A stretch of DNA of 61,867 nt, the filler included. It is 4 parts of 4 records of this genome, joined end to end, with 100 filler letters (N's around TTAATTAATTAA, not from the genome) between each part and the next. Parts side by side here need not be neighbours in the genome. Positions count along the whole stretch, not along the records: positions 28,799 to 51,868 come from DRR723986_12814; 3 more parts are not named here. One strand, written 5' to 3'. Every line of letters begins with the position of its first letter. The stretch's first letter is position 1. The translations under genes and the position numbers were made by a program. The notes below the pieces were generated by a model. It saw nothing but the letters and a program-made list of their open reading frames with translations, had not been told where the DNA came from and did not search any database. Shown here piece by piece: positions 35,388 through 45,507 of this stretch.

Positions 35388-36977
35388 TCATGCGGCCCGG
35401 CGGCCCGCAGATTGTTTCGGCAAGTTTACATGGCGATGTTCAGCACAACGAAGTCTCGACTTCCTGGTGCTAAACCCTGGCAACCAAGCGTAGGGTTGCA
35501 ACTTGCAGTCGCGAACGCGAATTGGCCGGCGATCCAGCCTTGAAAACCAAATGTTCCTACCCTTCGCGCTCTGCAAATAACGGCTATCGGAGGGAATAAG
35601 TCGCTCGAGATAGGGTTCCATCAAATCGGCCGCAACTTCGTCCAAACCACCGCGTCGCGCGTGCCTTACCCAGTACGATTCGTGGCTGTAGCGGTGAAAG
35701 TAGTGCGATTTCGGTAAGACTTTGATCTTACAATCCGCAGCAAGCTTCCGGAGTAAGAATCCCCACGTGTCGAGGGCTCCAGCATCTGGATACCCGCCTG
35801 CTCTATCCCAAGCCTCTTTCGTGAACAAATAGTTTCCGCTCGACGATGGTGCCCGATTGGTCTGCAGGAAGGCTGACAGGTCCATAATCGCATCGTCGAA
35901 CGACCAGGTGTGAGTCGGTTTGTCTTTACCGAGCTCGGTTGTGAAGTATCGCATCTGTTCGAAAGCCACAGTATCGACTTCGTTGGCGATAAGATGCTCA
36001 CGAAGTGCATGGATTGAATTCGCTGCAAGGACGTTGTCGGAATCCAAGCAAAAACAAAGGGAGTTGCGTGAAGCTTCCACTGCGGTATTCCGGGCAGCCC
36101 CGCCACCGCGGTTAGACTCATGCCTGATGGCTCGAACCCCGTCTGTCGTCTTAACTAATTGTTCTACCAGCTGATGGGTCCCGTCGCTTGAACAGTCATC
36201 AACGATAATTAGTTCGTCGCCCTCATGTGGTTGGAAATTTGTCTCCAGAATCGAGTTAACTGATTCCATAATCCAGTCTTCGCAATTGTAAGCTGGAATA
36301 AAGAAGCTAATTGGCAGAGACTTCTTTTGAACCCACCAGACTCCAGACGGCATGGATCTGATTTCCCAACCCAACCTACCGAAGAAATCGTCCACGGCTG
36401 CCTTAACTCCGGGGAAACACTCGTGTCCATAATCGTGTCCGGCAATGATGCCACCATCACGTACGGCAAAGAACCAAGACGCAATATCTTGCCAAACACC
36501 AGCTCTGCTATGATCCGCATCCAAGTAAACGAAATCGACGGATTCTGGAGCGAAGCTCGTCGCTGCGGCTTGAGAGTCTTTTCTGATTAATCGAAAGCGT
36601 TCATCGAACCGGCCCAGCCGATGCAGAGTTTGGCTATGCAATTGATCGAAATCAGCTTGTGGCAGATTCATCGGATCAGCGTAGTTTTTGCGATGCAAAT
36701 AATTGTCTACACCGACGAGCTGCCTGACTCGCGTGCGTTCAAGGATAGCCTCGCAATGGCCTCCAAACGCAACACCGATTTCCACGCCGCAATCTAGATC
36801 ATACTCCTGGATTACGCTGCGAAAATCTTCGTAGCCGTCCTTCCACGACCGTTCATGCCGTGTTCGCAAAAGATCCAAGTCGACTTTAGTTCGAAACAAC
36901 CTGCCATCTCCCCTGCGATGAACCTTGCGACGAAGCACACTTTCGTCATTATCGGCACCTCTGGAGCTGGCAGACAA
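35388..36977 (-). CDS. Fusion of class I SAM methyltransferase (Methyltransf_24-like) and GT2 glycosyltransferase
   Basis: VEIGVAFG, DFVYLDADH, GGIIAGHDY; then FIPAYN, IVDDCSSD, ARN, CLDSD; start codon uncertain. Confidence 0.8.
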   Translation of the reverse strand: MSASSRGADNDESVLRRKVHRRGDGRLFRTKVDLDLLRTRHERSWKDGYEDFRSVIQEYDLDCGVEIGVAFGGHCEAILERTRVRQLVGVDNYLHRKNYADPMNLPQADFDQLHSQTLHRLGRFDERFRLIRKDSQAAATSFAPESVDFVYLDADHSRAGVWQDIASWFFAVRDGGIIAGHDYGHECFPGVKAAVDDFFGRLGWEIRSMPSGVWWVQKKSLPISFFIPAYNCEDWIMESVNSILETNFQPHEGDELIIVDDCSSDGTHQLVEQLVKTTDGVRAIRHESNRGGGAARNTAVEASRNSLCFCLDSDNVLAANSIHALREHLIANEVDTVAFEQMRYFTTELGKDKPTHTWSFDDAIMDLSAFLQTNRAPSSSGNYLFTKEAWDRAGGYPDAGALDTWGFLLRKLAADCKIKVLPKSHYFHRYSHESYWVRHARRGGLDEVAADLMEPYLERLIPSDSRYLQSAKGRNIWFSRLDRRPIRVRDCKLQPYAWLPGFSTRKSRLRCAEHRHVNLPKQSAGRRAA

Positions 36978-36999
36978 ACAAAATAGGTCACTTTATTCG

Positions 37000-37719
37000 C
37001 TATCGTTCAAGTTCTCGGGGCACAACTTTTTCACGCCAGAAATGCTTGAACAGAACCTCGCCTTTTGCATCCAAGATTCGGTCATAACCACTGTTGGTGT
37101 CTCGCTCCTCGCGGAGGAGAATACCGGCACTCTTGGCTGTGCTTGAGTGGTAAAACTCATACAACTGCCTGCATAAGTGGTGATAGTCCTGCCTCAATAT
37201 TCTGTTGTCCGTTTGGTACGCATCTTGCAAAGCGCTAAGGATGATCGGATTTCTTGGGCAAGCAGCGAGTATTCCTTGGAAAATGGCGCCCGGGTAGGCC
37301 GCTGAGTTTACCGATAAGAAACTGCACTCTTCTAAGAGACTGGCAACATTCCCACACACCATTGCATCGCTATCAACGAACAGTCCCCCGTTCAAAAAGA
37401 GGTAGTAGTAGCGAAAGAGGTCTGCCTTGTGCGCCCCACACTTCAGCAAACGAAACTGTTTTGTGATTTTCGGAAACGCCGCGTGCGGATGGTTCTTAAA
37501 GAATTCGATGATCTCCGAATCAGTGAAGTGCTTGTAACGCCACTCTGCTGGCAACCGCTCATTGAACATTTCTAGCACATAGCTCGGAGGCTGCCGCCGA
37601 TCACATTGAAAAATGGTCTTCGATATTCTCCCGGAACTACTGAGTTCACCGAACTCAAAAACCTTAGGGTGCTCAACACTCCTAAAGCGTTTTAGGAGCG
37701 ACTCGACTAACCTTGACAT
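37000..37719 (-). CDS. GT32/OCH1-like DXD glycosyltransferase
   Basis: ISKTIFQ, AHKADLFRYYYLFLNGGLFVDSD. Confidence 0.82.
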   Translation of the reverse strand: MSRLVESLLKRFRSVEHPKVFEFGELSSSGRISKTIFQCDRRQPPSYVLEMFNERLPAEWRYKHFTDSEIIEFFKNHPHAAFPKITKQFRLLKCGAHKADLFRYYYLFLNGGLFVDSDAMVCGNVASLLEECSFLSVNSAAYPGAIFQGILAACPRNPIILSALQDAYQTDNRILRQDYHHLCRQLYEFYHSSTAKSAGILLREERDTNSGYDRILDAKGEVLFKHFWREKVVPRELER

Positions 37720-37769
37720 GAAATATCCAGGGCTTCTTGTGAAGTTTGGTTGACAACATAAATAAGGCG

Positions 37770-37982
37770 TTCGATCCCGGATTTGCGCTGCGCTGGGAAC
37801 AGGGAAGATCTCGTGCAGTTCCCACTTGAAAGAACCGCTCGAGTACTTTCACTCGAGAGCAAACGGAAGCTCAACACCACCGACGCCTTCATTCATGACG
37901 TGCTCGTGGGCGGTACGAGCGCCTTGGAGATGAAGCCTCAGTCCCCCCGCCGCACAATCATATCGCCTTAACGCAGGCGATC
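37770..37982 (-). pseudogene. Decayed integron integrase fragment
   Basis: Manual translation 37941 to 37801: LRLHLQGARTAHEHVMNEGVGGVELPFALE*KYSSGSFKWELHEIFP, matching the IntI-specific insertion. Confidence 0.65.
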
Positions 37983-38307
37983 GCGGACAGGTTGTCTGAT
38001 ATCTTGCAGACTTCACCGTTCCAGAAGGTTTCGGGGAGATATTTTAGGATCTTCGGCATGACAAAGCTGTCCAGTTCTTGCATCGGCTTATTCCGTTCAG
38101 ACAGAGGTTCCACAATAATCTCGTGGAGGTTCGGCAATCCGACTTGTTGGAGATCGCTTTGCCAACTTGCATCGGTACGAGGTGGACCGGAGCGCCGAAA
38201 ACGGGACACTAACGTTCCGCCCCATTCGCTGCGCGTTCAGCTAGCCCAGCTACAATCGCTGCCTCGGAGAACTCTTGGCAATCCCTCGAAGCGTGACATT
38301 GATCGTC

Positions 38308-41300
38308 CTAAGCGCCCGGGTTCATCCATCGATCTCGTGATATTTGGAAACCCTCAGGTGTGGGCTTAAAAGGGTCATTGGGACTCTCATGATGACTCTG
38401 GAATCTGCGAAGTTCCGAATACTCGATCTGTGTGATTACAAAGTAGTCTTCGAGGCCGCCTTTAATTCGAATGAGGTCGCGCTTCCAGCTGTCAGAATAT
38501 GGTGCACGCACCCTGCCATCTCCATATTTTCGATTGTTTGCAAGACCAATGAAGCAGTGAATATCCAGTGCTGAAGAATCAACCAGAGCGGCAAATGAAT
38601 CCAAGTCCCTGTTCCAGGACAGTACGAACAATGCATCTACTGCACCGCGCAACCTAGCTCGCTGTTGGATGTCCGTAAGTTCACTACAAACGAGGACGCC
38701 GAATTGAAATCCAAAATGCTTGAACAATCTCTTTTGAGCATACTGCGACTCGGGACCGAACGTTAGCCCAAACATCTTCCAAAGGTTGTCGCGTTCGCCA
38801 TGAGCTGGCACGATTTTCTGTTGCGTGATTACCGACTGGTGACGATACCCCAAGCGATAGTCCTGCAGATAGATTTTCGCCTCGTTGAACACGTGCTTCG
38901 AATCTTCGTGCCTATATTCAGCTCCGGCAATCACGGAGATTCCGTACTGCCCGAAGTGTGATGCAAGAGTGGGTAGCCAACGTCTTGGAATCGAAAGCTC
39001 TGGAAACAACACGTAGTGAGGTCGACTCCGCTTCGGGACTCTTACAATTTGATTCGTGAGCTCTGTCAGGCGTTGATACCGGTCCAGCGAAAGATCCGGT
39101 TTTGCTCCCGCTGCCTTTGCCCAACTTTCATCCGACACAAGCAGGCTAACGACCGAAAGGCGAATTGAGGAATCCTTACGTGGGCCACCTATCACAAGCG
39201 CCTCATCGTCGCCTGAGACACTATTCGCCCTGACATAAGTACCTCTTAGTGCTCGGACGTACTTTGCTAGCAGGGCAGGGTTCGAGCTAGTCGAAGGCAA
39301 CACTTCAGTTACTTCAGAAGGAGATAGTGGGCGCGTCGGAAGCAAAAATGCTTGGCAAAGAACAGACTCTGAAAAAGGGGCTTCAACTCTAGCCTTCGAG
39401 AGAAACTCTGAGACCAGCTCTCGGGCATCTTCGTATGCCGGGAAGATCTGAAGTGTGCCTTGATCGTCGATGTTGTGTGGTAGTTCATGGACCGCGTCAA
39501 GAAATCTCTTGCGATATTCGCAATCGTATTCAAGAAGTGCCTCTTTCAACGGCCGCTTAGCCAGATCTTTGAGCCAAATATCCTGCGCATTGAGCCGAAA
39601 ATTTCCATCAAACGACAATTCGATCCATTCACTGATGTCTTCACCGGGCTGTAGCTTGTTTATCGCCTCAAAAAGCTTTTCGACAGCAACTAATCCAGCT
39701 TTGTCAGGGCTGACCGCACGCAATACAGCAAGTCTCAATTGTCGCCTAAGATATCTACGGAAACCCAACCAGACTTTCTGGGCTTCCTCCGCTCCAAGGG
39801 AACAAACTTCTTGCAACGAATCAACGGCTTGGCTCAGCCTTCGAACAAACCTTGTAGCGATCTTCCAGTCACAGCATTCAACGGCCAGTGATAGCATTCT
39901 GGGGAGGTAGCCTTCAAAGTCGAATATCCTGAACGGCGTAAGGAGGTGTCGCTCTGCAAAATCAAAGAACTCCGCCCTTGGCTCTCTCCATTGTTTGCCT
40001 GGTAGATCACGAGCGGCAGCCTCAAACTGCCTTAGCAACGATGCCAAACTTAGACGCTTAACTGAAAGTGAATCCGCTTTTCTAAGTGCATCTGCATCTT
40101 CGTTTGGAGCCTTGTTAGCTGTTAGCACCCGGGCTGCCGGGGATTTGGTAAATCCTTGCAGGTCAGGCATGAGCCGCCATTCACTCGAAACTTCATCAAT
40201 TCGAGCGCGAATGGTGTCTACGAAGTCTTGCCCAATGCTCCCATTTAGTAGAAAGACCTGCTGCTTTTCCGCCCCAAAGACCAACCTCGATTGTTCCGCG
40301 TAAGTAGGCGTATACTCTAGCCCTTCGCTATTCTTCCCAGACACGTTGAGATGCGGAATACTGTTACTCAGGAACTGCAGAAGATCTTTCTGGGTTTTGC
40401 AATGAGAGTTTTCGCGAATGACAAGAAAAATGTCATCGACGTATCGAGCGTAAAAGACGGGAGCGAGCTGCTTTTCAATGAGAATATCAAACTCACTGAG
40501 TAGTACATTTGCAATTACAGGGGAGCACGAGAGGCCCACAGGAATTCCGACGGGCTCTTGCGGATCAAATGTCGGCAGGCTTTCTGCCCACGTGCGAAAG
40601 GAACAAGTCAGTTGGGCTGTAAAGAGTTGCTCTGCCCCAGATAGGTCACTTCCGTTCGCTTCCCTGAAATTTGATGCGTCCAGGAATCCCGGATTTGTTA
40701 AAAAATCCGAGTCAATATTGTGATAGAAACGAGATAAATCCATCGTCATCGCGACTACTCGATTGCCAGATTCAAGCTCTCGGGTGATCGCTCTCAAGCC
40801 CTCGTCACGCCAATTGCGATAGGCATCAAAGTACGGGTAGAAGGATCCGATTGCTGTAGTATGGAACCTGCTTTCCTTGGACTTTGGCGTGTCCGAAGTC
40901 GTTAGTATGCGGCGCAAACGCGTACCCCGACTGGCACTCGTCAAACATGCGTCGAACTTGTGGCCAATCAAGTTTACCCATAGAGCACTGACGACGTGCA
41001 TCGCGACCGTAGGCTGCGCGACTGGACGGAAGGTCGCACGAATGTCACTGTTGAGTTTGGCCTGCTCCCATTCGTCCCACGGGTCTGAACAAATTACTGA
41101 GCGTGAGTCTTTGCCCTCCCAAGCGATAGTCTTGGGAATATAAGCATAGCGTCCGAAAAAACTGATATTGCGAAACCACCAGCTTTCTTCGTCCTCGGGT
41201 TGAGCCACCAGCTTTGTTCGAAGCGATGTCAGGTTCTCACTCAGGCTGGCTTCGAACTGCGCAAAGCCCAACCCAATTGCCTGGGAACGGTCGTAGAAGG

Positions 41301-41382
41301 TGTCCACTTTCGCCTTTTTATAGGCCTCGTACATCCGATCCATCGATATGAAGTCTTCTGGTAGCGGTGTATCTGGCTTCAT
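38308..41382 (-). CDS. Reverse transcriptase fused to C-terminal nitrilase/C-N hydrolase domain (UG1/UG5, DRT1-like defence RT)
   Basis: RT: MDLSRFYHNID, GIPVGLSCSPVIAN, YARYVDD. Nitrilase-like: LFPELSIP, QQKIVP, GVLVCSEL. Confidence 0.88.
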   Translation of the reverse strand: MKPDTPLPEDFISMDRMYEAYKKAKVDTFYDRSQAIGLGFAQFEASLSENLTSLRTKLVAQPEDEESWWFRNISFFGRYAYIPKTIAWEGKDSRSVICSDPWDEWEQAKLNSDIRATFRPVAQPTVAMHVVSALWVNLIGHKFDACLTSASRGTRLRRILTTSDTPKSKESRFHTTAIGSFYPYFDAYRNWRDEGLRAITRELESGNRVVAMTMDLSRFYHNIDSDFLTNPGFLDASNFREANGSDLSGAEQLFTAQLTCSFRTWAESLPTFDPQEPVGIPVGLSCSPVIANVLLSEFDILIEKQLAPVFYARYVDDIFLVIRENSHCKTQKDLLQFLSNSIPHLNVSGKNSEGLEYTPTYAEQSRLVFGAEKQQVFLLNGSIGQDFVDTIRARIDEVSSEWRLMPDLQGFTKSPAARVLTANKAPNEDADALRKADSLSVKRLSLASLLRQFEAAARDLPGKQWREPRAEFFDFAERHLLTPFRIFDFEGYLPRMLSLAVECCDWKIATRFVRRLSQAVDSLQEVCSLGAEEAQKVWLGFRRYLRRQLRLAVLRAVSPDKAGLVAVEKLFEAINKLQPGEDISEWIELSFDGNFRLNAQDIWLKDLAKRPLKEALLEYDCEYRKRFLDAVHELPHNIDDQGTLQIFPAYEDARELVSEFLSKARVEAPFSESVLCQAFLLPTRPLSPSEVTEVLPSTSSNPALLAKYVRALRGTYVRANSVSGDDEALVIGGPRKDSSIRLSVVSLLVSDESWAKAAGAKPDLSLDRYQRLTELTNQIVRVPKRSRPHYVLFPELSIPRRWLPTLASHFGQYGISVIAGAEYRHEDSKHVFNEAKIYLQDYRLGYRHQSVITQQKIVPAHGERDNLWKMFGLTFGPESQYAQKRLFKHFGFQFGVLVCSELTDIQQRARLRGAVDALFVLSWNRDLDSFAALVDSSALDIHCFIGLANNRKYGDGRVRAPYSDSWKRDLIRIKGGLEDYFVITQIEYSELRRFQSHHESPNDPFKPTPEGFQISRDRWMNPGA

Positions 41383-41406
41383 GTTTTTGTTTTAGTCTCG
41401 TGCTGT

Positions 41407-41535
41407 ATGTAGAGCCTGGATCTGTTACGACCTCGCGTTAAACACCTACCGCGGTGCGAAGCGATGAGCGAAACACGCAACGTACAATTTGCATAGCTTC
41501 TCAAGTTGTCGAGAGGTTCGGTGAATCACCTACAT
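41407..41535 (-). ncRNA. Candidate structured RNA upstream of the RT
   Basis: Closing stem AUGUAG/CUACAU enclosing hairpins at 41442-57, 41475-94, 41499-514 and 41520-30; folded by eye only. Confidence 0.35.
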
Positions 41536-41823
41536 TACTCACTGAATGGCGCTAGTTCATGGCTCGAAGCCAAAAACTTTGTATGCGAATTAGAAAGCTT
41601 TGCTCTGGCCGAGTAGCTGAATAATCAATCGATGACTCGCCACCACCTTTGTGACGATGAGAGTCGGCCCGATGCCGAAAAGCAACCATCAATATGCGGA
41701 GGGCGTCAGCACCGAGCGGGAAATGGCAATTGGGCACTCACCTGCGAACTCGGAACCCAGTACTATTGATGACCATGCACATACGTGCCGTCCCAAGGCG
41801 ACCGGATCATCACAATTGCTGTG

Positions 41824-43797
41824 CTAAGCTCTGTCATCATCCGGTTGCTCAGATTCTGATTCTTCCGACTCTCCGTACCACGCTTCTGGGATAAGTTTGT
41901 CGGGGCCTCTCCAGCGGAGCACAACAGCATCTTGATACCACTGATCTTTCAAGTCGGCGTGTTCGGTAATGATGACCTGGAATTTGCCCTTGAGTGATTC
42001 AACAGTATCGAAGATGAATTTAAACATGCGATTGACCGCTTCACGATCCTCGTCTCCGAGTTGCTCAATGTCTGACTCGCTACGAATTTCTGAGGGGAAG
42101 TAGTACTGAGCCGGTTGGTCGAGCATAAGGAAGCTGGGGACAGGTCGCTGTTTTGACACGAACCACTTGTGTAGAGCCAACAGGCAAGTCAGGTGATATC
42201 CGACCCAGTTTTCACCACTTCCCATTTGCGACAATGGAATCGGTCCTGTATCTCGATGGGAAACAACGGTCAGCTTCTTAATGTCGAAAACGAGTGGGTT
42301 TTCAGAGTGCTCCAAATTAAGGCGGCGTGACCATTGAGTAATGTCGTCGCCAATGATCTTCAGTGCAGATTCAAGCTTTTCATCTGTCTGGTTTTTCGAA
42401 AGGCTCTTCTCAAGCTCATCAACCTGATCTCGAAGTGCATCTCGCTTGTCAAACAATTCCGTAGACCCTGCGATGGTCTCGATGCTCTCCAAAAACAAAC
42501 TGATCCTTCCGACCACTCTAGCTTGGTTTGCCTCTTCACTACGCATTGTTGCCAGAGCTTCCTGCTGTGCAACAATGGATTCGATCGCAGTCTTGACTTC
42601 GGTAATCTGCCGACGAATTCCTGTCGCCTCAGCTTCCTTATTGTTGATGTATTCATCAAGTCGGGGCCGTTGCCTTGTCACTGTTTGAAGCTGGCGTTCA
42701 AGGTCAGCGAGCGAGCGATTCACTTCTTCGGCACTAGGCGTCGGTTTCTCAAGTTGCGAACTACACAGAGGACAAGCCTGCTCGCCATCCTCTTGCTGAA
42801 ATAGACCAATTGATACGAGTCGATTCCGCTGCTCCGTTGCTTCAATTGAGTACCCGTCCTGATCTCGACTGAACGCTTTAGCGGCCTCAATGTCTTTCTT
42901 TACGGAACGAAGTTCTTCTTGAAGCGAGTCTCGTTGTTCGCCGAGTCTCCCGAACTCACCATCGGCGTCAAATTCTACGGATTGCGGTATCCAATTGAGG
43001 CAATTGCGTAAGACCTCAGTTGTTGTGTCAAAATCAACAGGGGGATTAGAGTTGGCGATCACACCAGCTTGACTAGCCTCTGCGAACAAGGCGAGCGCCC
43101 GTGAATTGTCTCGCCCCTTGATTGCCTCCTCATCCTCGATTTTTCGTTCGACTAACTTCAGTTCACGGCGAGCACGTTGGAGGCGAAGTTGCCGGTCGAG
43201 TTGGTTGTCACCTACTGAGCCAAGAAAGTATGGCAGCGTGTCTTGAATCGTTCTTGGTGCCCAGCTTTCCTCCTGCCGGTAAAAGAGTAGCTTCTTATCT
43301 GATACACGGTTTTGATCTTGGTAGAGATAGAAGCGTGTGTGATCAATCGTCGCTCGAACAGGATCTCTGGAGTGTCCCTTAGGCGGGACATTCTCGTTGG
43401 GTGTGATCCGGGCGATTTCAGTGAGAAATGCGTTAAGAGCTTTCACGTTCGAGTTTGATTCCATATCACTCAGTTCAGGAATGACGTCCTCCGCTACAGG
43501 AGAGAAAAAGACATCTGAACCGGTTTGCTGATCTTCTGGCGGTATTGGTCGAGCGATCAAGACCAATCCAGTGTCTGTCCGAAGCAGCAAAGCATAAGCC
43601 ACCGCGGTATCACGAATGACGCCGTGAGCGACCTCGTAATCAGTCTTACCAAGGCAATAGTCAACGATGTCGATCAGTGCTGACTTGCCAGCCTTTGAAC
43701 CACCGGTAATCACATTGACTACACCAGGCTTCAGCCGAACGGAACTACGTTCACCGGCAGCATTGAACACTGCAATTTCGATAATCTGAAAACTCAT
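41824..43797 (-). CDS. lmuB: Lamassu/ABC-three-component SMC-like ATPase (DUF3732)
   Basis: Walker A ITGGSKAGKS, coiled coils with CPLC hook, signature MGSGENW, Walker B FLMLDQP, ITEH. Confidence 0.85.
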   Translation of the reverse strand: MSFQIIEIAVFNAAGERSSVRLKPGVVNVITGGSKAGKSALIDIVDYCLGKTDYEVAHGVIRDTAVAYALLLRTDTGLVLIARPIPPEDQQTGSDVFFSPVAEDVIPELSDMESNSNVKALNAFLTEIARITPNENVPPKGHSRDPVRATIDHTRFYLYQDQNRVSDKKLLFYRQEESWAPRTIQDTLPYFLGSVGDNQLDRQLRLQRARRELKLVERKIEDEEAIKGRDNSRALALFAEASQAGVIANSNPPVDFDTTTEVLRNCLNWIPQSVEFDADGEFGRLGEQRDSLQEELRSVKKDIEAAKAFSRDQDGYSIEATEQRNRLVSIGLFQQEDGEQACPLCSSQLEKPTPSAEEVNRSLADLERQLQTVTRQRPRLDEYINNKEAEATGIRRQITEVKTAIESIVAQQEALATMRSEEANQARVVGRISLFLESIETIAGSTELFDKRDALRDQVDELEKSLSKNQTDEKLESALKIIGDDITQWSRRLNLEHSENPLVFDIKKLTVVSHRDTGPIPLSQMGSGENWVGYHLTCLLALHKWFVSKQRPVPSFLMLDQPAQYYFPSEIRSESDIEQLGDEDREAVNRMFKFIFDTVESLKGKFQVIITEHADLKDQWYQDAVVLRWRGPDKLIPEAWYGESEESESEQPDDDRA

Positions 43798-44294
43798 GGT
43801 GAAATCCCCAGTAAGGCATAGACTGTTTCGACTGACCCTGCGTCAGCAAGCCAACGACCGACAAACTCGCTTCGACGCCAGCACTCACCAATTTCAGGTG
43901 ACAACTGAGGAAACTTCGTTTTCCCCTTCATCTTGGCGGTTCCCTCGTGCAAGAAGTTCAACTCATCAAGTACGATTGCACTTCGATGAACAGAAAAGAT
44001 GATCGATTCTTTCGTGTACGGGATCAACTCCTTGATCCTTTCGGGAAAATCAATGAGTAGCTCACGGCGTTCCTGCAACCAAGTTGGAAAGGTTGTTCTG
44101 ATATTGGCAGGCAGTGCTTTGCGAGTACCGGGGTGTAAAACCAACGGAAGCACGAGTGGAGCTAACGCAAAGGGCATTCCTTTCGGGTGGACCGATTCAT
44201 ACCCGCCAACCGCACGCCTTATCATCAGTCCCGAGAAGGCTGGGTTTAGTAAATTCGCTACGATCTGTGACCGCTCGTTCCACGAATCAAGCAT
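43794..44294 (-). CDS. lmuC: Lamassu/ABC-3C middle component
   Basis: ANLLNPAF, LVLPLVLH..TR..LP, GRWLA....VYALLGI; overlaps both neighbours (translational coupling). Confidence 0.8.
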   Translation of the reverse strand: MLDSWNERSQIVANLLNPAFSGLMIRRAVGGYESVHPKGMPFALAPLVLPLVLHPGTRKALPANIRTTFPTWLQERRELLIDFPERIKELIPYTKESIIFSVHRSAIVLDELNFLHEGTAKMKGKTKFPQLSPEIGECWRRSEFVGRWLADAGSVETVYALLGISP

Positions 44295-45507
44295 TATCAG
44301 CGGTCTCCAACAACTTATCGAGGACACTTCCAATGTCATCGGGGTGCCAAATAATCCGAGCTTTGTCTACGAGCATGTGGAACGACCCTCGTGCCATATA
44401 AGCCGAGACGAATTCTGGGCGAATAAAGAACGATGGGCGTACGCCTGCGGATTCCTGCACCCATTCGTAGATTCGCTTCCCAAGCTCAGCTCTTGCTGCG
44501 CCATCTAATTTCTCAATTCCGTCGAGAGCGATTGCAACCTTGCTGGCCCACTCGTTGAGCAGTCGATCTTCATACGCTTCCTCTTCATCAATCCTGAGCA
44601 GCGTTTCACGGACCCATCGAGAACGCTGCTCGTATGCTCGGTAATGGTCGTCCTGTGCAACCCGAATCACACGTCGATTGTCGAAGACTCGCCGCAATTC
44701 AGCAACGAACGTCCGATCATCGTCAGTGAGCGTTTGATCCACTGGGACAATCGCATCCAAGAGGTCATCTGGAAGGTTATCCCTTTTGAACTGGTCCAGT
44801 AGATCACGGATCTGACGGTGAATTAAACTTACCTGGATCCCTTTGTTCGTATTCTGCGAAAGGTGTTCAACTGCTACACGGAACCACCACCCCTCCAGTC
44901 GGTCAGCAAATCCTCTCAAGTGCTTTTCTGGTTCTTCAACCGAGAAACGAAGCTCACGCTCAATGAGCAGTCGGGTATCCAGGATGTCAGGTGAGGCATC
45001 GATCAGGAACATGTTCTTGAAAAGCAACTTGCGTTCGCTGACCTTCAATTTCGTCAGTTCCTTGAACGCTGGAATGACCGTTTTGTTACTCGACTCTGCA
45101 CCAGCCGTTTCAATTTTGTTGCGAGCCTCCTCTACTTTCCGATTCTCACTGCGCAACAATGCCACTGCAGTGCCGGAACTCGCAGTTGCTGTTGCGACCA
45201 GTGAGAAAATCGTGTGCTCTGGATCGAGTTCCCCCTTGCGAATTTTCTCGGACCAAACACGTAATGTCTTCCACAGGTCCACCGACTTGTCTGTAACGCT
45301 GGCAGTTTTAGTAAGTGAGTGCTTGTACTGGAGTACTTCAGCAGCCGTCGAAGGTCCATTTGTCGGGGCGAATGAAACGTCGTCGACGACTTCTAGCGAC
45401 AGCAGATCCGACGACTCATCATGTTGCATGCCGAGCAAGAGCGCGCTGCGCACTTGGTGCAGATAGCCTATGGCTTGCCCAGAGGCATCGAACTTACCGT
45501 TTTGCAT
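44287..45507 (-). CDS. lmuA: Lamassu effector: N-terminal PD-(D/E)xK (Cap4-like) nuclease plus ABC-3C C-terminal domain
   Basis: GYLHQ, LEVVDDV, LQYKHS, DLWKTL; C-terminal QRSRWVRE, RGSFHML..K..I.WHP. Confidence 0.78.
   Translation of the reverse strand: MQNGKFDASGQAIGYLHQVRSALLLGMQHDESSDLLSLEVVDDVSFAPTNGPSTAAEVLQYKHSLTKTASVTDKSVDLWKTLRVWSEKIRKGELDPEHTIFSLVATATASSGTAVALLRSENRKVEEARNKIETAGAESSNKTVIPAFKELTKLKVSERKLLFKNMFLIDASPDILDTRLLIERELRFSVEEPEKHLRGFADRLEGWWFRVAVEHLSQNTNKGIQVSLIHRQIRDLLDQFKRDNLPDDLLDAIVPVDQTLTDDDRTFVAELRRVFDNRRVIRVAQDDHYRAYEQRSRWVRETLLRIDEEEAYEDRLLNEWASKVAIALDGIEKLDGAARAELGKRIYEWVQESAGVRPSFFIRPEFVSAYMARGSFHMLVDKARIIWHPDDIGSVLDKLLETADNA

What the first reader, a model, noticed from the sequence alone, without database searches (positions are those of the whole stretch)
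38308..41823. RT-nitrilase fusion preceded by a compact multi-hairpin candidate ncRNA and lacking a small membrane partner
Seen: a 1024-aa protein with an intact RT core (YVDD) and a C-terminal nitrilase-like domain (PELSIP, QQK, VCSEL). It is preceded by a 440-bp spacer with no convincing ORF. On the sense strand, 41535 to 41407 folds by eye into a 129-nt unit with a closing helix AUGUAG/CUACAU, a possible inner helix ACCUC/GAGGU and four hairpins, ending 24 nt before the ATG. Known: RT-nitrilase fusions are the UG1/UG5-type (DRT1-like) defence RTs, and DRT1 was described with a small membrane protein; an upstream template ncRNA is the hallmark of retrons and DRT2/3/9. No hydrophobic partner ORF is visible here. 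Inference: this may be an ncRNA-associated variant in which the cDNA product gates the nitrilase effector.
Basis: partly seen in the sequence, partly recalled or inferred. Interest (0 to 1): 0.8.

Follow-up and report, generated by a model that had tools for sequence, protein, structure and literature searches.

The report
UG5-large RT-nitrilase defence gene, no ncRNA
This is an intact but ordinary member of a known family of anti-phage enzymes (a reverse transcriptase fused to a nitrilase), and the small RNA suspected in front of it is not supported by any test run here.

Summary
The 1024-aa ORF (38308-41382, minus strand) is real and intact. It is a full-length UG5-large RT-nitrilase (PADLOC RT_UG5-nitrilase, E 1e-265). 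It aligns end to end with the validated S. meliloti DRT11 (33% identity, E 6e-167). All catalytic residues are invariant in 137 of 137 homologues. It follows a Lamassu operon.

The 441-nt spacer exists and holds no convincing ORF. The 129-nt "multi-hairpin unit" folds no better than shuffled sequence (z -0.42; 69 of 200 shuffles fold as well). It has no Rfam match. I found no counterpart by blastn or nhmmer in 80 homologous loci, or by covariance model in 99 loci plus the DRT11 locus. RNAalifold found no consensus structure in its own clade. In 56 of 127 homologous loci the upstream ORF lies 60 nt away or less.

[quoted passage not shown] In this sampled set, lacking the Drt1b-type membrane partner is the usual state (3 of 160 loci have it). 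Mestre et al. report it in 31 of 299.

Verdict: a new member of a known kind; the ncRNA reading is not supported. Earlier agents of this scan filed UG5-large genes on other DNA the same way.

The parts
38308..41382 (-). UG5-large reverse transcriptase-nitrilase gene, 1024 aa (P0001)
   Evidence: ORF. PADLOC RT_UG5-nitrilase E 1.1e-265, protein 12-1020 on profile 21-898/907. 33% identity end to end with DRT11. AF2 model pLDDT 84.3, pTM 0.86.
40363..40836 (-). RT core (residues 183-340), including motif A D215 and YVDD 314-317 (40432-40443)
   Evidence: Pfam RVT_1 E 1.1e-09 on residues 183-340. D215, Y314, D316 and D317 are invariant in 137/137 and V315 in 136/137. D316/D317 align with the essential DD296-297 of DRT11 (paper passage).
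40183..40185 (-). Codon of Ser400 (motif SSEWR), candidate protein-priming residue (inference)
   Evidence: S400 and E401 are invariant in 137/137 full-length homologues including DRT11. They lie at the start of a low-confidence loop, with residues 400-402 at pLDDT below 50. In DRT1 the priming S402 lies in an unresolved loop 382-478 (PMC13275509 passages). The two were not aligned by sequence.
39223..40071 (-). Alpha-helical linker region (about residues 438-720)
   Evidence: Helices H438-713 in the AF2 model. This is the most variable part of alignments A1 and A2.
38344..39165 (-). C-terminal nitrilase (C-N hydrolase) domain, about residues 740-1013, with E795, K856, C899 and a conserved C-terminal tail FKPxPxGF...R
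   Evidence: PADLOC RTasNitrilase E 5e-46 on residues 774-1013. Foldseek top hits are nitrilase-superfamily enzymes, E 7e-09. E795, K856 and C899 are invariant in 137/137. C899 aligns with the essential C876 of DRT11. A1 profile match to the DRT1 nitrilase domain of 9yfd (whole-sequence E 3e-20; this stretch i-Evalue 1.7e-09).
41383..41823 (-). 441-nt intergenic spacer; probably the promoter and 5' UTR of the RT gene (inferred, not shown)
   Evidence: No ORF above 61 aa. Fold z -0.08. No Rfam hit. No similarity to any of 80 homologous loci. No sigma-70-like promoter or terminator was called here.
41407..41535 (-).
   Evidence: z -0.42, with 69/200 shuffles as stable. The covariance model R1 finds only itself in the window plus 99 loci. 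With filters off it finds nothing upstream of the RT in 9 clade loci or in the DRT11 locus.
41824..43797 (-). LmuB (DUF3732, SMC-like ATPase) of a neighbouring Lamassu system
   Evidence: Pfam DUF3732 E 3e-56. PADLOC LmuB E 1.8e-137.
43794..44339 (-). LmuC (ABC-3C middle component MC3)
   Evidence: Pfam MC3 E 1.2e-48. PADLOC LmuC E 1e-15.
44287..45507 (-). LmuA (ABC-3C effector component with CTD7)
   Evidence: Pfam CTD7 E 2.8e-33. PADLOC LmuA E 8.5e-49.

Best explanation
The gene is a stand-alone UG5-large (class 3 UG/Abi, DRT11-like) anti-phage reverse transcriptase-nitrilase. It belongs to a Planctomycetota-centred branch of the family and sits in a defence island directly after a Lamassu operon.

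Most likely mechanism, inferred from the family and not shown here:
- The RT domain makes short DNA without any RNA template. It is primed on one of its own residues, so the DNA stays covalently attached. The invariant Ser400, at the start of a flexible loop, is my candidate for that residue.
- The DNA adduct drives oligomerisation. This both assembles the nitrilase domain and keeps it locked, with the conserved C-terminal tail acting as a lid.
- A phage cue releases the nitrilase activity and the infection aborts.

The 441-nt spacer is an ordinary intergenic region that probably carries the promoter and 5' UTR. The 129-nt 'unit' is not an ncRNA. No membrane partner is needed.
For: Membership:
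- Full-length match to the UG5-nitrilase model, E 1.1e-265.
- End-to-end alignment with DRT11 at 33% identity, E 6e-167. D316/D317 align with DD296-297 and C899 with C876, the residues whose mutation abolished defence (paper passages).
- D215, Y314, D316, D317, E795, K856 and C899 are invariant in 137/137 and V315 in 136/137.
- Confident model (pLDDT 84.3) with a nitrilase-fold C-terminus.
- Profile match to the DRT1 structure 9yfd, E 3e-20.
- In the tree the window groups with L001 (Fuerstiella MAG) at support 0.998, and with L002, L003 (Pirellulaceae MAGs) and L132 at 1.0.

No ncRNA. The median upstream gap is 105 nt, and 56/127 loci have 60 nt or less.

Literature:
- PMC13275509 (sections 4 and 5 read): purified DRT1, DRT5S and DRT5L synthesise DNA with dNTPs, without added RNA and with RNase A. 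The DNA is covalently bound. S402 primes in DRT1. Adducts drive a tetramer and a dormant filament, with a C-terminal lid.
- PMC13436386 (abstract and passages read): DRT11 lacks the TM protein, needs only RT and nitrilase activity, and showed no ncRNA in RNA-seq.

Defence context: Lamassu LmuA, LmuC and LmuB lie immediately upstream.
Against: - Nothing about the function of this particular gene was tested. Its closest relative is only 50% identical, so a lineage-specific upstream element could escape every comparison.
- The DRT11 deletion removed positions 109,019-109,193, which is -325 to -151 from the ATG at 109,344.
- 'DRT5S/DRT5L' are not defined in the passages I read. That they are UG5-small and UG5-large is my reading, and supplements were closed.
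- The authors state that DRT1's S402 is not conserved in other class 3 DRTs, and my profile alignment to 9yfd does not cover that loop. Ser400 as the priming site is therefore only a positional analogy.
- The E. coli E101 UG5-large system is reported to need its TM protein (Mestre et al. passage), so partner independence is not universal in the family.
- The upstream gaps rest on a crude ORF finder (ORFs of 100 aa or more).
Confidence: 0.85

Rival explanations
1. A lineage-specific non-coding RNA encoded in the spacer (the 129-nt unit or another part) serves as template or scaffold for the RT, as in class 2 DRTs and retrons.
For: The spacer is long: 441 nt against a family median of 105 nt, and only 18/127 loci have 400 nt or more. 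Three other clade members also have spacers of 228-434 nt. With the closest homologue at 50% identity, absence of similarity is weak evidence.
Against: - Fold z -0.42, and antisense z -0.56.
- No Rfam hit.
- The covariance model finds nothing in 99 loci, in 9 clade loci with filters off, or in the DRT11 locus.
- RNAalifold predicts 0 pairs on 6 clade upstream regions.
- The equivalent -153..-25 windows of 5 homologues and DRT11 have z from -1.92 to +1.77, with no trend.
- L096 and L146 have an ORF overlapping the RT start.
- Biochemistry and DRT11 RNA-seq for class 3 argue against a template RNA.
Confidence: 0.04
2. The spacer holds a structured 5' UTR that regulates expression of the RT-nitrilase in cis (attenuator or thermosensor-like), without being a template.
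For: The unit ends 24 nt before the ATG, where a 5' UTR would lie. L002 and L003 share a TATAAT-containing motif about 100 nt upstream of their ATG, so transcription may start within this kind of spacer.
Against: No excess folding energy. No conservation in the clade. No promoter or terminator pattern was called in the region.
Confidence: 0.05
3. The RT-nitrilase works together with the upstream Lamassu genes as one composite system, rather than as two neighbours in a defence island.
For: All four genes are on the same strand and no terminator was called after LmuB. An LmuB-like ATPase also lies directly upstream of the RT in L001 and L053.
Against: - The L001 ATPase is not an orthologue of the window's LmuB (best BLASTP E 0.007).
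- tblastn of the window's LmuA, LmuB and LmuC found none in 160 loci.
- Neighbours in the clade vary: HmaC, BrxA, integrase, decarboxylase, epimerase.
- DRT11 works alone.
Confidence: 0.04
4. The gene is an inactive relic.
For: No expression data are available. No RNA run is listed (not counted as evidence).
Against: The ORF is uninterrupted at 1024 aa. All catalytic residues and the conserved C-terminal tail are intact. The structure model is confident.
Confidence: 0.02

Closest known systems
DRT11, the UG5-large RT-nitrilase of Sinorhizobium meliloti RMO17 pSymA (PMC13436386)
   Same: Same architecture and length (1005 vs 1024 aa). The alignment is end to end (33% identity, E 6e-167), with the essential DD and Cys residues aligned. 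Neither has a TM partner. Both lie beside other defence genes.
   Different: Only 33% identical and in a different phylum-level branch: the window groups with Planctomycetota MAG sequences. This gene is untested.
UG5-large + TM system of E. coli E101 (known to me only through passages of Mestre et al. and the DRT11 paper)
   Same: RT-nitrilase fusion of the UG5-large group.
   Different: That system has a downstream Drt1b/RTasTM-type membrane protein that is reported as necessary. The window has none. Such partners were found in only 3 of 160 related loci, and two of those were confirmed by PADLOC.
DRT1 (UG1), PDB 9yfd (PMC13275509)
   Same: Class 3 RT-nitrilase fusion. The profile match covers the RT palm and the nitrilase domain (E 3e-20). 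Both have a conserved C-terminal tail and a flexible loop after the RT domain. This is the likely mechanistic model: template-free, protein-primed DNA adducts that regulate the nitrilase.
   Different: A different family. The Drt1a model scores 93 bits, on the nitrilase part only, against 882 bits for the UG5 model. DRT1 is about 1229 aa against 1024 aa here. The priming loop could not be aligned.
Class 2 ncRNA-dependent DRTs (DRT2, DRT3, DRT9, DRT10) and retrons
   Same: All have an RT palm with YxDD and are defence-associated.
   Different: There are only weak partial RT hits (Drt3a 57 bits, Drt2 42 bits, Drt9 36 bits). No conserved structured upstream RNA was found. The fused nitrilase effector places the gene in class 3.

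Membership tests
UG5-large (class 3 UG/Abi RT; DRT11-like) | Full-length match to the family profile | tested here: met
   PADLOC RT_UG5-nitrilase E 1.1e-265, 882 bits, protein 12-1020 on profile 21-898/907. The next RT family scores far lower.
UG5-large (class 3 UG/Abi RT; DRT11-like) | RT domain with intact catalytic aspartates (motif A D, motif C YVDD) | tested here: met
   RVT_1. D215, Y314, D316 and D317 are invariant in 137/137 and V315 in 136/137. D316/D317 align with DRT11 DD296-297.
UG5-large (class 3 UG/Abi RT; DRT11-like) | C-terminally fused C-N hydrolase (nitrilase) domain with the Glu-Lys-Cys triad | tested here: met
   RTasNitrilase E 5e-46. Nitrilase fold by Foldseek, E 7e-09. 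E795, K856 and C899 are invariant. C899 aligns with DRT11 C876.
UG5-large (class 3 UG/Abi RT; DRT11-like) | Protein of about 1000 aa with a helical region between RT and nitrilase | tested here: met
   1024 aa. Helices 438-713 in the AF2 model.
UG5-large (class 3 UG/Abi RT; DRT11-like) | Downstream Drt1b/RTasTM membrane protein (optional: 31 of 299 members per Mestre et al.) | tested here: not met
   No hydrophobic ORF. tblastn of three partners against the window gave a best E of 0.44. No PADLOC hit for 4 small ORFs. This feature is not defining: DRT11 lacks it too.
UG5-large (class 3 UG/Abi RT; DRT11-like) | Anti-phage activity that depends on both RT and nitrilase catalysis | not testable with these tools
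   Shown for DRT11 only (paper passages).
UG5-large (class 3 UG/Abi RT; DRT11-like) | [quoted passage not shown] | not testable with these tools
   Reported for DRT1, DRT5S and DRT5L (PMC13275509 section 5). That DRT5L is UG5-large is my reading.
DRT1 (UG1) | Full-length match to the Drt1a profile; length about 1200-1300 aa | tested here: not met
   Drt1a E 2.5e-27 (93 bits), best stretch on residues 784-1011. The protein is 1024 aa.
Class 2 ncRNA-associated DRTs / retrons | Conserved structured ncRNA next to the RT gene | tested here: not met
   Fold z -0.42. Rfam 0 hits. The covariance model found only itself. RNAalifold found 0 pairs. No upstream similarity.
Lamassu (neighbouring genes) | LmuA effector, LmuC middle component and LmuB SMC-like ATPase in one operon | tested here: met
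   PADLOC LmuA 8.5e-49, LmuC 1e-15, LmuB 1.8e-137. Pfam CTD7, MC3, DUF3732.

The most novel reading that the evidence does not exclude
The Planctomycetota branch of UG5-large, which tends to have long upstream spacers (228-441 nt in 4 of its full-length members), uses a fast-evolving, lineage-specific upstream RNA as template or regulator. That would make it the first ncRNA-linked class 3 DRT.
Probability: 0.04. Interest if true: 0.7.

Novelty: new member of a known kind. Interest (0 to 1): 0.15.

Why it matters
The finding adds an intact, divergent member to a family whose mechanism has only just been worked out. It is at most 50% identical to any sequence found and comes from a Planctomycetota-centred branch. 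It extends the record of UG5-large genes that stand alone, without the membrane partner.

Its practical value is a negative one: the attractive "RT + upstream ncRNA" reading should not be applied to class 3 RT-nitrilases on the strength of hairpins seen by eye.

One small positive lead came out of the comparison. Ser400-Glu401 is invariant in all 137 full-length UG5-large proteins examined and lies at the start of a flexible loop. This gives a directly testable candidate for the protein-priming residue of this family.

Tried and rejected
- Whole-genome look-up: no genome is held for this window.
- The first locus search with the single protein found no relatives. The alignment-based searches worked.
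- RNA evidence: no RNA holder is listed. The two DNA runs, when laid, gave only six short contigs (151-215 nt) on parts of the CDS and of LmuB, and none over the spacer. Nothing can be said about expression or about near relatives of the spacer.
- Rfam gave nothing at E of 1 or less.
- The promoter/terminator scan called no promoter in 37700-42000, and all three terminator-like sites lie outside the 441-nt spacer.
- The repeat search found only short chance-like pairs.
- Foldseek against the PDB returned nitrilase-superfamily enzymes. DRT1 (9yfd) was not among the rows listed. The link to DRT1 rests on the sequence profile.
- A roughly 95-nt stretch conserved just downstream of the RT in one subclade looked like a possible RNA. 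It proved to be the conserved N-terminus of a coding gene.
- The equal length (657 aa) of the upstream ATPases in the window and in L001 suggested synteny, but they are not orthologues.
- The CM search with default filters covered 99 of the 160 loci. The other 61 were not searched with the model.
- blastn and nhmmer of the spacer were run against the first 80 loci only.
- L017's RT start was probably misplaced.
- Supplements of the papers were closed. They may define DRT5S/DRT5L and list UG5-associated clusters.
Full report
**What is there.** The minus-strand ORF 38308..41382 encodes 1024 residues. Pfam sees only the RT core, RVT_1 on residues 183-340. PADLOC's RT_UG5-nitrilase model matches residues 12-1020 at E 1.1e-265 (882 bits). 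The Drt1a model matches only the nitrilase end, at 93 bits, and the class 2 models (Drt3a, Drt2, Drt9) give 57, 42 and 36 bits on the palm. The protein is therefore UG5-large, not DRT1.

An AlphaFold2 model built on 28 homologues is confident (pLDDT 84.3, pTM 0.86). It shows an RT domain, a low-confidence loop from residue 400, a helical region at about 438-713 and a C-terminal alpha/beta domain. Foldseek assigns that last domain to the nitrilase superfamily, with a best E of 7e-09. A profile of the family matches the solved DRT1 structure 9yfd at E 3e-20, over the RT palm and the nitrilase domain.

**Context.** Directly upstream on the same strand is a complete Lamassu operon: LmuA 44287-45507, LmuC 43794-44339 and LmuB 41824-43797. 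Downstream are glycosyltransferase genes. GC content is flat across the region, at 0.49-0.54 over 30000-50999.

**The spacer and the 129-nt unit.** The spacer 41383-41823 is 441 nt. Its longest ORF is 61 aa. Ten small ORFs in and around it have no counterpart in 160 homologous loci (best E 0.046). Four of them have no PADLOC hit.

However, the energy is -34.5 kcal/mol against -33.06 +/- 3.46 for dinucleotide shuffles (z -0.42), and 69 of 200 shuffles fold at least as well. The antisense strand gives z -0.56 and the whole spacer z -0.08. Rfam has no match at E of 1 or less in 37500-42500.

**Comparison with homologues.** The closest proteins in a 5.8-billion-protein collection are 50% identical. 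I collected 80 loci from genomes and 80 from metagenomes. In a FastTree of 137 full-length proteins the window pairs with L001 (a Fuerstiella MAG) at support 0.998. It then joins L002 and L003 (Pirellulaceae MAGs) and L132 at support 1.0. Loci with an RT ORF under 950 aa were left out of the tree.

The tests on the upstream region gave these results:
- The spacer has no blastn hit better than E 3 in the upstream 600 nt of the first 80 loci (those with at least 100 nt upstream), and no nhmmer hit there or anywhere in those loci.
- All-against-all blastn of 450 nt upstream in seven clade members gave only five matches of 11-21 nt, with E 0.13-0.47.
- A covariance model of the unit with its MFE structure found only itself in the window plus 99 loci. 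The one other match (L054, E 4.1) lies downstream of that RT.
- With filters off, the model found nothing upstream of the RT in nine clade loci (best E 0.98, on the opposite strand 1.8 kb away), and nothing upstream in the DRT11 locus.
- RNAalifold on 180 nt upstream of six clade members predicted no pair at all.
- The equivalent -153..-25 windows of five homologues and of DRT11 have z-scores of 0.24, -0.51, -1.92, 1.43, 0.09 and 1.77.

Among 127 loci with enough flank, the median distance to the nearest upstream ORF of 100 aa or more is 105 nt. In 56 loci it is 60 nt or less, and in only 18 it is 400 nt or more. This is a crude ORF-based count, and the window itself is included. About half of the family simply has no room for such an element.

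**The membrane partner.** Three loci (L061, L114, L133) carry a 161-172-aa ORF with an N-terminal hydrophobic helix right after the RT. Two of these ORFs match PADLOC Drt1b|RTasTM at E 5e-56 and 1e-57. By tblastn this protein occurs in 3 of 160 loci and not in the window, where the best E is 0.44. Mestre et al. report a TM partner in 31 of 299 UG5-large members (passage). Absence of the partner is therefore the usual state.

**What is known.**
- PMC13436386 (abstract, section 23 and passages read) characterises DRT11, a UG5-large system of S. meliloti RMO17 that lacks the TM protein. RT (DD296-297AA) and nitrilase (C876A) mutants lose defence. RNA-seq shows no read accumulation flanking the gene. 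A 179-bp upstream deletion has no effect.
- The window protein aligns with DRT11 from end to end (33% identity, E 6e-167). D316/D317 align with DD296-297, and C899 with C876.
- One caveat applies.
[quoted passage not shown] The DNA is covalently bound to the protein. DRT1 primes on S402, in an unresolved loop (382-478). The adducts drive tetramers and dormant filaments, in which swapped C-termini close the nitrilase site. I read DRT5S/DRT5L as UG5-small and UG5-large, but the passages seen do not define them and supplements were closed.
- Two preprints summarise class 3 in the same way (passages only).

**Mechanism proposed.** By membership, the gene most likely works as DRT11 and DRT1 do. [quoted passage not shown]

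What is shown here is family membership, intact catalytic residues and the fold. Everything mechanistic is inferred.

A modest new lead concerns the priming residue. Ser400 and Glu401 are invariant in 137 of 137 full-length sequences, including DRT11. They sit exactly where the model's confidence collapses, with residues 400-402 at pLDDT below 50. This is the same relative position as DRT1's priming loop. The C-terminal tail (F/Y1005-K-P-x-P-x-G-F/Y ... R1018) is almost invariant too, which fits a lid role.

**Verdict.** This is a new member of a known kind. Earlier agents of this scan reached the same classification for UG5-large genes on other DNA. I did not use those notes as evidence.

**Seen on the way, outside the window.** In one UG5-large subclade the RT-nitrilase gene sits exactly between the two halves of a type IIG restriction-methyltransferase/PglX-like gene.
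- In L118 the upstream ORF matches profile positions 1-633 of 1205 (E 4e-275). The downstream ORF matches positions 638-1199 (E 4e-223).
- The same clean arrangement occurs in L150, L106, L108 and L122, with abutting or overlapping stop and start codons. L078, L124 and L142 have further disruptions.
- L113 has the unsplit gene directly before the RT.
- The RT proteins of these loci are mostly 55-66% identical to each other, so the arrangement is old.
- One literature search (PglX + nitrilase + reverse transcriptase) listed two papers. Neither is about this by title or abstract, and I did not read them.

Noticed in passing
L118:1057-7799 (also L150, L106, L108, L122; L078, L124, L142 with disruptions; L113 unsplit): In one UG5-large subclade the RT-nitrilase gene lies exactly between the N-half (profile positions 1-633/1205) and the C-half (638-1199) of a type IIG RM/PglX-like gene, with abutting or overlapping stop and start codons. 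L113 has the intact gene directly upstream of the RT. The RT proteins involved are mostly 55-66% identical, so this is an old, conserved nesting. One literature search showed no paper on it by title.
   Followed up: partly
window 40183-40185 (Ser400 codon): Ser400-Glu401 is invariant in 137/137 full-length UG5-large proteins, including DRT11. It sits at the start of a low-confidence loop. It is a candidate protein-priming residue, by positional analogy with DRT1 S402.
   Followed up: partly
window 41824-45507 (-): Complete Lamassu (ABC-3C type) operon LmuA-LmuC-LmuB directly upstream of the RT gene. For LmuA, Pfam names only its C-terminal CTD7 domain (residues 267-391).
   Followed up: partly
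L001:760-2733 and L053:1011-2984: A distant LmuB-like SMC ATPase of 657/658 aa lies directly upstream of the UG5-large gene, on the same strand, in a Fuerstiella MAG and an Opitutaceae MAG (PADLOC E about 1e-10; 27.5% identical to each other). A fragment also occurs in L044. It is not an orthologue of the window's LmuB.
   Followed up: partly
L006, L028, L037, L042 (e.g. L028:306-1139): A 277-278-aa ORF lies 12-19 nt upstream of the RT in four gammaproteobacterial-type loci. The two copies scanned (L028, L037) match KwaB (DUF4868) models weakly (E 1e-12 to 3e-12) and have no Pfam family.
   Followed up: partly
L001:6172-7752: A 526-aa ORF starts 7 nt after the RT stop in the closest homologous locus. 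It has no Pfam or PADLOC family and is followed by an HNH-domain protein.
   Followed up: no
L002:2245-2424 and L003:2821-3000: The two Pirellulaceae loci share a short upstream motif containing CTATAATGGA and CTGATATCTC about 100 nt before the ATG. It is probably a promoter region. The window shows no clear match to it.
   Followed up: no
window 35388-37719 (-): Two glycosyltransferase genes lie downstream of the RT. One is a methyltransferase-GT2 fusion of 529 aa and the other a DXD-motif sugar-binding type of 239 aa.
   Followed up: no
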